Below, one piece after another: positions 30,212-53,142 of a stretch of 64,000 nucleotides of DNA. The notes under the pieces were generated by a model. The model made no database searches, had not been told where the DNA came from, and saw only the letters and a program-made list of their open reading frames with translations. Made by a program: the position numbers and the translations under genes. Position 1 is the first letter of the stretch, and each line of letters begins with the position of its first letter. Source of the stretch: Eledone cirrhosa (Eukaryota); contig OZ024746.1 in NCBI GenBank assembly GCA_964016885.1, positions 33,108,001-33,172,000 of the forward strand, read 5' to 3'.

Positions 30212-30546
30212 GCAAGCGGTGGGAGGGACCGTCCTGACGAAGGCCAGTTAAGCTTGAAATGTATAGACGTTTGTCCCCCTTGCTTCTTCTGGACATCACC
30301 AGAGCGCGTTAGCCCCCCCCCCCCACGGTATTTGCATAGCTACGGCTTCCTAAAACCGCATTTCTTTGGAGATACGAAATATTTATACATATTGTATAAA
30401 GCTATGCTTGAAGCGAAATCCTATTTCTTTTTTCATTATAAATTGAGCCAACTTATGCAGCTTCATATGCAAATGAGATTAATCACCTCATTTATACAGA
30501 CGAGAAAAGTATATATTCTCGCCTGTTTTCTAGTCCAGCAGTCGCA
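30212..30546 (+). mobile_element. 332-nt hammerhead-containing retrozyme-like monomer (family G, permutation 1)
   Basis: cgtc-CTGACGA(30234)-aggc cagttaa gctt-GAAA-tgta-TA-gacg; begins and ends with gca; circular permutation of 52831-53142. Confidence 0.85.
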
Positions 30547-30624
30547 TATATCTATATATCTTCACCCACGTATATATATATATATATATATATATATATA
30601 TATATATATATATATATATATATC

Positions 30625-30890
30625 CTTCCTCTTCTTCTTCGCCCACGTATTCCTCACACGTTCGAGCAGGTCCTGTCAGAAGCCACTATCTCTAACTGAT
30701 CTGACTGGGTCCCCAAACGAAATCAGCGAAGCTCATGGGTATGTTCTAACCATCTGGCTCAGGGTCTAACCCTGAGTCTCTTGCCGGTTGGTTTTGCCTG
30801 TAAAATCTGTCCAGCACTTCTTTCCTTGAGACATTCTAACTGCATGACCACAGTATCGGAGATGTGATCTGAAAAGTCGCGGTTCTACCC
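30625..30890 (-). mobile_element. 3' fragment of an RTE-like LINE
   Basis: LRYCGHAVRM, then after a frameshift KPTGKR.R.RP..RW; ends in (gaa)n. Confidence 0.55.
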
Positions 30891-32244
30891 ATATATATAT
30901 ATATACATATGTATACCTAACCAAATGAAAAAGATATATGCATAAGAGCCATCTGTCGTATAAGAAACACGGTATATTGTATATATACCAAATACATATT
31001 ATATAGAAAAATATGTACACAGGTGGAATCATAAATGAAACACTATAGTGTTATTTCACATCTTTTTCATTTGGTTATTATGGCTCTGGATATTCTCTAT
31101 TGAGCTTGCTGGAATCATATTCCTCGTCGGACTAACAACACACCTAGGAGCTGGACATATCGTTAATCATCATGTGATAGTAGGAAAATAACTCAATATA
31201 TATGAAACCGGTTTTATTTTATACATTCATTATATACATGTCGACACCCTAGATTTATCGTTTTTGATTGTTAGTGTTCTCGTATCATTTACCTTTTCTC
31301 TCATCCCTAAAAATATAGTTCCTAAATCCTTCTCTTTTAGACTCTCGTATAATCCAGTAAAGCATGCGAAGTTTTCTTTGTTTTTGTACTATCTCATCTA
31401 AAGCTAGCAACTGTGATTGTTTATACATAATATTTAAAATATTAGTTAGATGTTTTAGCCCCCGCCTAGTGTCTTTTATGTCGTGTTTACGAAATTGTCA
31501 AATATATAGCATTGTTAACCAATACACAACATTTCTTCTGAAGAACAAGCTCAATATTTCAGAGGAAACTAATTATGTTGTAAAATCTCCATTCTAGATG
31601 TAGAAACTTGATTATTCTTCACTCCACTGGCAGTTACAACAGAATTGTATTAAATAATATATAGAATCCTCTAAAGTGAAATAACCCATGGTATTAGTAA
31701 AATATTTGAAATATTACTAGTGATGTGAACAAAACGAATACTTATTTCGTTGTATATAAATACAAAAAGATCGTGTTCTCGCTTAGGACGTACGCTCATG
31801 ATAGTCTATCGAGATACAATAGAGATCGAAATCGAATTTTCCTGGTGAGGGACTTCTATTCGAAGCCTCGAACCCTCCTCCATTTTCTCCAATCCTGAAT
31901 CTAATACAACTGTATTTTTGCATCACTGTGTTTGTTTTAGTTATATATATGTATGTATAGGCGCGGGGACATAGAAATAGTTGGGCTGGATACCCGATCG
32001 CGCGGTTAAACCACTGGGAGTGAAGGGCCCCTAGTCTTTGTCAGAGCATTCTTCTAGGAGAAGGCAACTCAGGAAACTGGGTTAACTCCGACATAAAACC
32101 TGCGGCTCAGTAGTTACCGACGATGTTGATCTTTTCTTCTTTTCGGGTTATAGCTGCTGGCGCTCAGAGAGTGGGATTGGCTCAGTGCACAGTCTTTCTT
32201 CACTTTAAATAAATCTTTGCGCACAAGCATTGCACGATGGAATT

Positions 32245-32372
32245 AATTGTTTCTACTTTAGGCACAAGGCCAGCAATTACCCAGTGCATTACTGTTACTT
32301 TATTTTATCGACCCCGTAAGGATGAAAGGCAATGTCAACCTCGGCGGAATTTGAATTCAGATCGTAAAGGGA
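32245..32372 (-). mobile_element. SINE S1, truncated
   Basis: Reverse complement of the S1 tail, body and B box. Confidence 0.85.
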
Positions 32373-32659
32373 TGACTAATAATGGTATATCGTGCAATCG
32401 CCATACTCGATAATGAGGGAGCAGCCATCATATATATATATATATATATATATATATATATATATATATATATATATATATATATATATACATATATACA
32501 TATATATATGCTCCAACATGGTCTCAGTCCGTAGGCTGGAACACCTATAAGCGTAAACGGATACATATAAACATATATATATATATACATATATAGCTAG
32601 ATAGGCATATAGATAATATGTGTCTCTTCTTATGTGTGTATTCAGTCTCTATTGATCTA

Positions 32660-50399: not shown

Positions 50400-51189
50400 C
50401 TTAGATAATTATAAGTTACCTCCCTTACATTGTCTCTCAATTAAAAAATTAAAAAATTAGCACTTCTTAACTATAAACTACCCACAATTTCTAATTTCTC
50501 GAGGAGATACTTCCCCTGAAACCACCCTCTAATTAGTAAGGTAAATATGTCCATTGGCGGCCATCTTGTTACTCATAGGCAGATCTCACACAATTCAGCC
50601 TCGACAGAAGAATACTGCTCGACCATGGCAGACAATATATATACCCAGGACACCATAGTGAAATACCAATATATGGAACATTACATTCATGTAACATTCT
50701 TTCCTTATTTTAATTTATATTTCTTTTGAAGTTCAGATGAGCTGCTCTAATTTTACCTAAGTTATTTATTTTCAACTGAACCAGATCAATAATGATCTAT
50801 AATCATTTGATCCAGAAATATTATATGCAGTAGCGAAACAATTGTAAACGGACATTATTGTTATTAATATTATTATTATTATTATTATTATTCTCTACAT
50901 TCCTTACATCAAACTAAAATATGTTGACAATCTTTAAATAATGTCTTCTTTGTGAAGTTTGTGGTCTTGTTTTGTTTAACTAATGAATATTTCCAGCTCT
51001 GTGCAACTAACCTCTGCATGAACCCAGCCACATAGCTGCCTTCCACTGCATATTGCACATTGAGCACATGCCTTTACGTTTTGGCTTCTAACTAATTCCC
51101 CAATCTCTCTTCTCCTCTCCTATCTCCTCTCCTATCTCCATCTCTCTCTTTAAGATTGGTTATTTTTGAACTGTGTATATATATATATA

Positions 51190-51432
51190 TTAATTCAAGA
51201 TATTAACAAAAATAGACATTCGCGTGATCAAGTATATTTTATTATACATATTTCAGAGATACTGAGCTATCTTCATCAGTACGTCCTCATCAGATAAAAA
51301 TAAGATGACATACCCTGACTAAGTTGATGGTTAAAATTCAGTCATGGCATGACCTCTGTACCTTTGAAATATATATAATAAAATATACTTGATCACACGA
51401 ATGTCTATTTTTGTTAATATCTTGAATTAATA
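51190..51432. mobile_element. Fold-back element with - strand hammerhead (A-related)
   Basis: Arms 51190-51255 / 51365-51432; reverse complement reads ttttat-CTGATGA-ggacgtactga..tcagtatctct-GAAA-tatgta-TA-ataaaa. Confidence 0.75.
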
Positions 51433-52277
51433 TTAATAACTCCGGAAAACCATATCAGTGGAGTGCTTCTGATCTATTGTAAAACTTTATTCTTTGATTT
51501 ATTCATTGAACCTCGTTTAACCTTTAAATATATATATATATATGATTTGTGATATATGTATATTGATGGCTCTATTAGATGTACCGCGGTATTTGACTGT
51601 TAATCTCATCGACTATGAAATAAATCATAGCATACGGGATATCTGTGTTGTTTGAACTTAGAAAGGTTAAGTTAGGTCATTATCGTTAGCCCTCTACCCA
51701 TTATGCCATACACATATCTAGATAATAATAGCTATAATATTAAGTGCACCTATAAGTGTTGAAAAAATAATCATGGCTAAAACCAAAAACACATCTACAA
51801 AAAAAAAACAAAGATAAAAGCATCATTATCGGTCTGAAACATTAAAATTCTTTTCATTGGCGGAGAGGAATTTATCACCTGCAAGTATCTAAAATGTCTC
51901 CAGAATAAATGGGATTCATATAACAATGAAGCCCGATAAACACATGCACACACATAAATACGCATGCATTCATATATACATACACACATGCATACATATA
52001 TTTTATTTACATACATGCATATATGCATATATATAAACATATGTATATATATACATATACATATATATATATATAGTAATAATAATAAATGTGAAGACTA
52101 AAATCCAAAGAGGGTTCGATAAGGCTAAATATATATCATATATATAAGAACCCTAGAGCAAATATTTATTAAATAACAGATTTAATATATATATATATAT
52201 GTATATATATATATATATATATATATATATATATATATATATATATATATATATATATATATATATATATATATATA

Positions 52278-52800
52278 TAAAATAAAATAATTAAGTCAAA
52301 TATTTACAATTTGGCTTCGTTTATTAAAGATGTACTGCTATATATATTTCGGTGACAGCCATCATTGGCTGTGACTTCTTCAGGCAGTCCGAATTGGTGT
52401 GGTAAAGACAGGTAGACATGTTGTTGAGGTGTTTTACTCCGTCAATGCGTCAATGCTCCGATATGTCCAGCTCCTGGTTGGGTTGTTATTTCTCTGATTC
52501 CAGTTCCTCAGAGAAATAACAACCCAACCAGGAGCTGGACATATCGGCGTATTGACAGAGTAAAACACTTCAACAAGATGTGTACCTGTCTCTACCACAC
52601 CAATTCGGACTGCCTGAAGAGGTCACAGTCAATGATGGCTGTCACCGAAATATATATAGCAGTACATCTTTAACAAACGAAGCCAAATTTTAAATATTTG
52701 ACTTAATTATTTTATATTACTCCGGAGTAACCAAACCAACCTGCGTATTTCGTCGAGTGCTCCAATCTGCATACTTAGGTGTCGGTAAACAACCAACATA
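52278..52800 (+). mobile_element. Family B fold-back hammerhead element (copy 2)
   Basis: Arms centred near 52505; hammerheads at 52609-52663 (+) and 52334-52388 (-); tail 52716-52800. Confidence 0.88.
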
Positions 52801-52830
52801 TACTAAAAAAAAAAAATATATATATATATA

Positions 52831-53142
52831 TGAGCCAACTTATGCAGCTTCATATGCAAATGAGATTAAATACCTCATTCACACTGAGGAGAAATGTATA
52901 TATTCTCGGCTGTCTTCTAGTCCAGCAGTCGCAAGCGGTGGGAGGGACCGTCCTGACGAAGGCCAGTTAAGCCTGAAATGCATAGACGGTTCTCCCCCTT
53001 GCTTCTGCTGGACATCACCAGAGGGCGTTAGCCCCCCGGTGTTTGCATAGCTACGGCTTCCTAAAACCGTATTTCCTTGGAGATACGAAATATTTATACA
53101 TATTGTATAAAGCTATGCTTGAAGCGAAATCCTATTTCTTTT
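52831..53142 (+). mobile_element. Family G retrozyme-like monomer, permutation 2
   Basis: accgtc-CTGACGA(52953)-aggc cagttaa gcct-GAAA-tgca-TA-gacggt; segment order rotated relative to 30212-30546. Confidence 0.88.

What the first reader, a model, noticed from the sequence alone, without database searches (positions are those of the whole stretch)
30212..53142. Two circularly permuted copies of a ~332-nt hammerhead RNA: genomic footprint of a circular retrozyme
Seen: 30212-30546 reads segment X (gcaagcggtggg...cctatttctt) then Y (tgagccaac...ccagcagtcgca), while 52831-53142 reads Y then X. Both sit in (TA)n and have no recognisable coding capacity. Both carry a canonical type I hammerhead, perfect in copy 2. 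Stem I extends into a rod (gggag/ctccc, gcaag/cttgc, gtccagcag/ctgctggac). In copy 1 the gtccagcag arm lies at the far end, so it is contiguous with the rest of the rod only if the RNA is circular or multimeric. Other hairpins include gcatagct/agctatgc and tttataca/tgtataaa. Known: metazoan non-LTR retrozymes are short hammerhead repeats that yield small circRNAs. Inference: each copy was reverse-transcribed from a different start point on a circular template.
Basis: partly seen in the sequence, partly recalled or inferred. Interest (0 to 1): 0.92.

Follow-up and report, generated by a model that had tools for sequence, protein, structure and literature searches.

The report
Hammerhead retrozyme with Penelope insertion footprint
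These are two of over a thousand copies of a 323-base non-coding repeat with a hammerhead (predicted self-cutting) motif, and most copies end at one of two fixed sites about 41 bases apart, which points to copying by a Penelope-type retrotransposon enzyme, likely from a small RNA circle, so it is a new family of a known kind.

Summary
In detail: two permuted copies of one unit with a type I hammerhead. The unit is 323-324 nt, not 332. The reading holds only in part. The family has at least about 1,000 loci. At 170 mapped sites, 244 of 273 outer 3' ends fall at two fixed places about 41 nt apart, and 5' ends scatter. 104 of 170 sites are head-to-head inversions, and 73 of 80 such pairs carry one end of each kind. 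This is the Penelope 'tail' footprint, not a new start point per copy. Copy 2 is such a standard copy. Copy 1 (one unit plus 2-3 nt) has a 3' end seen at none of 171 sites. A circular template is likely but not shown. In its favour, copies cross the cut site seamlessly (231 of 234), 5' ends do not gather there, and repeated laps share subfamily alleles. An uncut multimer fits most of this too. No RNA data were available and no helper element was identified. This scan noted the same footprint before, in other families of this genome and in other genomes. Verdict: a new member of the metazoan non-LTR retrozymes.

The parts
30212..30546 (+). Copy 1: one full unit plus 2-3 nt, opened at unit position 270-272 (position 1 = first base after the predicted cut); atypical 3' end
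   Evidence: no outer 3' end at positions 262-282 among 171 sites
30229..30270 (+). Hammerhead of copy 1 (core from 30234, predicted cut after 30265); one stem I mismatch, one G-U in stem II
30197..30211 (.). Left half of a possible 15-bp target duplication of copy 1 (14 of 15 match; low complexity)
30548..30562 (.). Right half of the possible target duplication
52831..53142 (+). Copy 2: standard family insertion, unit positions 170 to about 158; 3' end at site A, running into (TA)n; 5' end in the truncation hot spot 161-170
52920..53013 (+). Rod formed by extended stem I, with the hammerhead at its tip
52948..52989 (+). Type I hammerhead of copy 2: core from 52953, stem II 52960-52974, palindromic helix III 52978-52983, predicted cut after 52984
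   Evidence: 423 exact copies of the 35-nt core in the genome, control 0
53097..53103 (+). Family 3' end site B (inferred first reverse-transcription start), at the loop of a predicted hairpin
   Evidence: 122 of 273 outer 3' ends; fold
53101..53142 (+). The roughly 41-nt 'tail' between sites B and A
53139..53146 (+). Family 3' end site A (inferred second start); the exact base is blurred by the TA flank
   Evidence: 122 of 273 outer 3' ends

Best explanation
This is a dispersed family of a 323-nt non-coding hammerhead unit whose copies end at two fixed sites, likely written into (TA)n DNA by a Penelope-like (PLE) reverse transcriptase-endonuclease that starts inside the RNA and likely uses a circular monomer as template. 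Inferred cycle: a locus longer than one unit is transcribed. Its hammerheads would cut out a monomer, which would be ligated into a circle. A PLE protein would nick AT-rich DNA on one or both strands and prime at site A or site B, 158 and 117 nt downstream of the cut site. It would run backwards through the cut site for a variable distance, giving 0.1 to about 2.1 units. Priming on both strands, at A on one and B on the other, would give the head-to-head insertions with the tail on one side only. Shown: ends, inversions, laps and allele sharing. Inferred: transcription, cleavage, circularisation and the enzyme. Copy 2 is a standard product. Copy 1 is a rare off-site event, likely one full lap of an RNA or DNA circle.
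For: 3' ends: A 122, B 122, other 29 of 273 at 170 sites picked by position from exact-pattern lists. Inversions at 104 of 170 sites; of 80 with both ends at A or B, 73 are A+B (p 6e-15). TA at the junction in 208 of 245 A/B ends against 32 of 68 outer 5' ends. This matches the PLE tail, partial tandems and adjacent inverted truncated copies (PMC8557442, passages) and the two internal start sites and two-strand extension shown in vitro for an anole PLE (PMC11167929, parts 1-2 of 4). Template longer than a cut monomer: 82 of 285 segments are 340 nt or more; 231 of 234 crossings of the cut site have no gap; 11 5' ends at positions 1-7 against 7.3 expected, p 0.12. One unit sequence per insertion: at 10 polymorphic sites two laps of one segment agree in 267 of 292 pairs (198 expected), and the minor allele is in both laps 35 times and in one lap 14 times (expected 10 and 81); inverted arms behave alike, 695 of 759. 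A young PLE-like element with an 894-residue open frame exists in the genome. Related coral, mussel and axolotl units form circles in vivo (PMC7229834, parts 2-4).
Against: An excess of exactly one-unit lengths in the first sample (18 against 5-9 in neighbouring bins) did not repeat in the second (6 against 5-8). Rare private alleles are not shared between laps beyond chance once L038 is set aside (3 pairs against 1.1 expected, 2 of them from L038; L038 looks like a later DNA duplication). There is no A-to-G editing excess (171 against 163 T-to-C). Segments decay steadily at about 0.5% per base and none in the samples exceeds about 2.1 units apart from L038, so long rolling products are absent. 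The one PLE family examined shares no sequence with the unit. In the anole PLE, uncut RNA was the main substrate in vitro (PMC11167929), and only 1 of 9 Xenopus dimers cleaved in vitro (10.64898/2026.07.22.740005). Helix III here is weak.
Confidence: 0.6

Rival explanations
1. Same PLE-type insertion, but the template is an uncut linear multimer read through from tandem source loci; no circle is needed.
For: Fixed 3' ends, inversions, a seamless cut site and no 5' pile-up there fit equally well. Hammerhead cleavage was dispensable in vitro for the anole PLE (PMC11167929). The 5'-end hot spot just past site A (16 against 5.7 expected at 161-170) could be a transcription start.
Against: Several linked haplotypes exist and their alleles appear in both laps (35 both against 14 one). 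That needs repeated rebuilding of multimers from single units, which a strictly linear lineage does not do. About three quarters of the segments pass through the hot spot (28 of about 125 stop at 151-172). No same-strand run above 3 units appears among the 300 listed exact hits (nearly all on contig C1).
Confidence: 0.3
2. One reading: each copy begins at its own, more or less random, point on a circle.
For: Copy 1 has both ends off the usual sites and is one unit plus 2-3 nt, with a possible target duplication. 29 of 273 ends are at other places.
Against: 244 of 273 outer 3' ends are at two sites. Copy 2 is at site A. No sampled end matches copy 1's.
Confidence: 0.05
3. The copies are terminal (pLTR) fragments of a longer autonomous Penelope element.
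For: The end architecture is that of PLEs. The neighbouring repeat at 52278-52805 is such a fragment.
Against: Long copies run into the unit's own 3' part in exact phase, not into coding sequence. 66 outer 5' flanks share no common upstream element; 4 pairwise matches were seen, one a segmental duplicate. An ancient origin from a pLTR is not excluded.
Confidence: 0.04

Closest known systems
Metazoan non-LTR retrozymes (coral, mussel 350-390 nt, axolotl Rtz331/Rtz353; PMC7229834, parts 2-4 of 6 read; PMC7761336, passages)
   Same: Unit size, AT-rich non-coding sequence, one type I hammerhead per unit, head-to-tail copies, self-paired fold. The weak palindromic helix III resembles axolotl HHR_Amex1, which works as a dimer.
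   Different: Here copies are dispersed and short (about 2 units at most), not arrays of up to dozens. Ends and inversions were mapped here, which the parts read do not report. Expression, cleavage and circles are untested here.
Endonuclease-bearing Penelope-like elements (PMC8557442, passages; anole PAc, PMC11167929, parts 1-2 of 4)
   Same: Two 3' ends about 40 nt apart (tail), 5' truncation, adjacent inverted copy, (TA)n targets, hammerhead upstream of the start sites.
   Different: No open frame; the unit is the whole element. The hammerhead has a full stem I/II rod rather than the minimal PLE form. In PAc the primer was not homologous to the start site; here the ends merge with TA, so homology cannot be judged.
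Vertebrate retrozymes as non-autonomous PLE derivatives (bioRxiv 10.64898/2026.07.22.740005, parts 1-3 of 5; supplements closed)
   Same: Proposes the same partnership, from co-occurrence and pLTR similarity.
   Different: That work says the mobilisation mechanism remains to be elucidated. Here the link is the insertion footprint, and no homologous pLTR was found in the one PLE family examined.

Membership tests
non-LTR retrozyme | Type I hammerhead core in each unit | tested here: met
   Motif and fold; core intact at 45 of 69 loci not selected on it. Rfam models give no match.
non-LTR retrozyme | Non-coding unit of 150-450 nt in head-to-tail copies | tested here: met
   Period 323; 82 of 285 segments of 340 nt or more. 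The stop-to-stop frames crossing the copies show no recognisable protein on inspection; they were not searched.
non-LTR retrozyme | Two complete hammerheads in tandem at some loci, able to release a monomer | tested here: met
   Same-strand exact cores about 325 apart on C1 at 283.12 Mb and 320.50 Mb; L021 has two cut sites. Neither window copy has two.
non-LTR retrozyme | No LTR, primer-binding site or polypurine tract | tested here: inconclusive
   No LTR-type framing among mapped loci; PBS and PPT were not searched.
non-LTR retrozyme | Self-cleavage | not testable with these tools
   Needs in vitro transcripts.
non-LTR retrozyme | Expressed as circular RNA | not testable with these tools
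   No run on record as RNA was offered.
PLE-mobilised insertion | Two fixed 3' ends 30-40 nt apart, tail at one end only | tested here: met
   244 of 273 ends; A+B in 73 of 80 pairs; spacing about 41 nt.
PLE-mobilised insertion | 5' truncation and adjacent inverted truncated copy | tested here: met
   104 of 170 sites inverted; 5' ends spread round the unit.
PLE-mobilised insertion | AT-rich or microsatellite target | tested here: met
   208 of 245 A/B junctions carry TA repeats.
PLE-mobilised insertion | Sequence kinship with the pLTR of an autonomous partner | tested here: inconclusive
   No match to the one family fetched (6 loci); 50,158 first-look candidates were not surveyed.
autonomous PLE | RT plus GIY-YIG open frame | tested here: not met
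   The unit is 323 nt and repeats on itself; no shared upstream sequence in 66 flanks.

The most novel reading that the evidence does not exclude
One PLE protein dimer primes both strands of a DNA break on the same circular retrozyme RNA, at two fixed starts, and each arm rolls past the ligated ribozyme site. The strict A+B pairing and the lap-to-lap allele sharing are then a genomic record of circle-templated target-primed reverse transcription, a step the papers read propose but do not show. Copy 1 is an exact one-lap product from an off-site start.
Probability: 0.45. Interest if true: 0.65.

Novelty: new member of a known kind. Interest (0 to 1): 0.4.

Why it matters
How animal retrozyme RNAs get back into genomes is proposed but not shown in the papers read. 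A 323-nt unit with two mapped start sites and a strict A+B pairing is a compact substrate for the existing in vitro PLE assay: circle against uncut dimer, with a marked base. The two window copies add little by themselves; the value is in the family census. This scan has already recorded the same footprint for several sister families.

Tried and rejected
Rfam: no hammerhead match. The repeat finder was swamped by microsatellites. No RNA holder was listed; 4 runs of unrecorded kind from one study held the stretch. Laying them showed only many divergent copies and no joint skipping copy 1, so no empty site was seen; these are contigs, so this shows no absence. One-lap length peak: seen in sample 1, not repeated in sample 2, dropped. 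Private-allele sharing between laps: not above chance without L038. A-to-G editing scars, a lead from an earlier scan note: none. Compensatory changes in the rod: linked alleles were found but those I checked by hand are not base-pair partners; no formal covariation test was run. Helper search: one PLE-like family fetched, no similarity to the unit; Pfam does not name its protein. Metagenome scan for the core: 0 matches. Look-up of earlier findings by sequence: none. The hazard run used one pattern shifted by a base and is replaced. Rows left out: L130 (locally triplicated) from end counts, L280 (duplicate of L279) and L130 from the hazard test, L038, L130 and L280 from the final allele test; L279/L280 count twice in the 170 sites. 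The 60 best-match loci are biased by the query and were used for end counts only where the pattern list also held them.

Full report
Observation. The two stretches are permutations of one unit: copy 2 doubled aligns across all of copy 1. The unit is 323-324 nt, measured as the period between two cut sites in a tandem locus (L021). Copy 1 has 8 extra C and 2-3 nt of terminal overlap; copy 2 lacks about 11-12 nt. I number the unit from the first base after the predicted cut. Copy 1 then runs 270 to 272 and copy 2 runs 170 to about 158. The hammerhead and rod of copy 2 fold as described (z -5.7, 0 of 200 shuffles). Copy 1's are damaged. Rfam finds no hammerhead, so the assignment rests on the core motif as I recall it and on the fold. 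Helix III is a 6-nt palindrome, like the axolotl motif that cleaves well only as a dimer (PMC7229834, part 3).

Family size. The genome is 3.0 Gb and the window is at G000:C6:33108001-33172000. The two copies gave 2,079 and 2,328 first-look candidates. Exact patterns gave 423, 937 and 643 hits with controls at 0. A rough estimate is 1,040 loci, probably low because the calibrating sample was chosen for perfect cores. Loci differ from each other by 6.5%, and several linked haplotypes exist.

Ends. I fetched every place in the first 100 rows of each pattern list. These lists are ordered by position, not by likeness to either copy, and lie nearly all on contig C1. That gave 80 sites and 91 further sites. 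With L130 left out, 273 outer 3' ends divide into 122 at site A (about 155-162), 122 at site B (about 113-119) and 29 elsewhere. Class B was counted over 110-139 because alignments run on into flanking TA, so a few B calls may be true intermediate ends. 104 of 170 sites hold a head-to-head inverted piece. Where both outer ends are A or B, 73 are A+B, 2 are A+A and 5 are B+B (p 6e-15). TA repeats sit at 208 of 245 A/B junctions and 32 of 68 outer 5' ends. 5' ends are spread round the unit at about 0.5% per base, with a hot spot just past site A (16 against 5.7 expected at 161-170; it is used by A- and B-ended segments alike). Copy 2 is therefore a standard insertion: 3' end at A, 5' end at 170. 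No outer 3' end among 171 sites lies at 262-282, so copy 1 is an outlier.

What makes such ends. PLE insertions are 5'-truncated partial tandems with an adjacent inverted copy, a 30-40 bp tail often at one end only, and microsatellite targets (PMC8557442, passages). The purified anole PLE protein nicks and extends both DNA strands at AT-rich sites and starts reverse transcription at two internal sites that delimit the tail; hammerhead cleavage was not needed (PMC11167929). The A/B pattern matches this point for point, so I put PLE-type mobilisation at about 0.9. The unit is not a piece of a longer element. Long copies continue into the unit's own sequence in phase, and 66 outer 5' flanks share no upstream element. 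A young PLE-like family with an 894-residue open frame and a minimal hammerhead is in the genome. I read its RT and GIY-YIG motifs by eye; Pfam does not name them. It shares no sequence with the unit, so the helper is unidentified.

Circle or chain. A cut linear monomer is disfavoured as template: 231 of 234 crossings of the cut site have no gap within 2 nt, and 5' ends at positions 1-7 number 11 against 7.3 expected. That leaves a closed circle or an uncut multimer. At 10 polymorphic sites the two laps of one segment agree in 267 of 292 pairs (198 expected). The minor allele is in both laps 35 times and in one lap 14 times (expected 10 and 81). Inverted arms agree as often (695 of 759). No fixed direction of disagreement was seen. 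New subfamily alleles thus reach every lap, which requires multimers to be rebuilt from single units; a circle does this most simply. Homogenised source arrays would do it too. None longer than 3 units shows in the 300 listed hits, but the rest of the genome was not surveyed. Three sharper tests gave nothing: the one-unit length peak did not repeat, private alleles are not shared above chance, and there is no editing signal. The only 2.7-unit locus, L038, looks like a later DNA duplication. I put the circle at about two to one.

Copy 1. It lies in the TA run behind another young 400-bp repeat (29802-30208) and before an older repeat. A 15-bp direct repeat with one mismatch brackets it. This is low-complexity sequence, and its three informative bases could also be a short fold-back. 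One unit plus 2-3 nt from an unusual start fits a single lap of an RNA circle by an enzyme primed off-site, or re-insertion of a unit-length DNA circle. It could also be a chance truncation, which I estimate at a few percent among near-full-length copies. One case cannot decide.

Known and new. The element fits the metazoan non-LTR retrozymes (PMC7229834; PMC7761336). That paper names PLEs as the likely helper and circles as template, and a 2026 preprint argues a PLE origin while leaving the mechanism open (10.64898/2026.07.22.740005; its supplements are closed and might hold end maps). Six searches listed no paper on this family or on mapped PLE-type ends of retrozymes; subscription papers and repeat databases were not searched. 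Earlier notes of this scan, seen after my own mapping, describe the same two-start, two-arm footprint for 310-, 422-, 435- and 467-nt families of this genome and for units in other genomes. They are unchecked and are not independent support. Verdict: real, a new family of a known kind, with a useful mechanistic footprint. Interest 0.4.

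Noticed in passing
window 52278-52805: Inverted pair of 3' fragments with minimal hammerheads (52383 minus, 52614 plus), directly upstream of copy 2. About 82% like the 3' region of the PLE-like element in L328; over 2,000 candidates. 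Its two end sites are about 80 nt apart.
   Followed up: partly
L328:2313-4994 (G000:C2:291937600-291944600): Young PLE-like element with an 894-residue open frame, a long 3' region, a minimal hammerhead and a 99.8% identical inverted arm; frames of 856 and 814 residues at L329 and L330.
   Followed up: partly
window 62260-63110: Second retrozyme-like family: two tandem units of about 419 nt, each with a full type I hammerhead motif (62393, 62812), between TA runs.
   Followed up: no
window 29802-30208: Young repeat of about 400 bp bounded by TA, over 2,000 candidates, with a fixed right end and some inverted copies. It holds a hammerhead-like 3' strand without the usual upstream core; it may be the rearranged-hammerhead element of note e1-9536757 (not checked).
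   Followed up: partly
window 2712/2866, 12247/12398, 42090-44138, 47932, 51279, 61024, 10993: Many more minimal hammerhead motifs, several as head-to-head pairs, likely ends of other PLE families.
   Followed up: no
window 16146-19796: LINE-like element with a 922-residue frame bearing reverse-transcriptase motifs (read by eye), preceded by a 293-residue frame.
   Followed up: no
window 32716-35431 (minus), 26461-27042, 39442-40227: Broken RTE-like LINE frames and two mariner-like transposase fragments, named by eye.
   Followed up: no
window 37855-38422: Three tandem copies of a 190-bp unit at 97% identity.
   Followed up: no
L130: A whole head-to-head insertion of the family repeated about three times in a row, likely a local duplication or an assembly effect.
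   Followed up: no
unit positions 37-45 (e.g. L102, L107, L114, L262): About 9 of the 29 'other' 3' ends fall here, just before a TTA and a C run: possibly a third, minor start site.
   Followed up: partly
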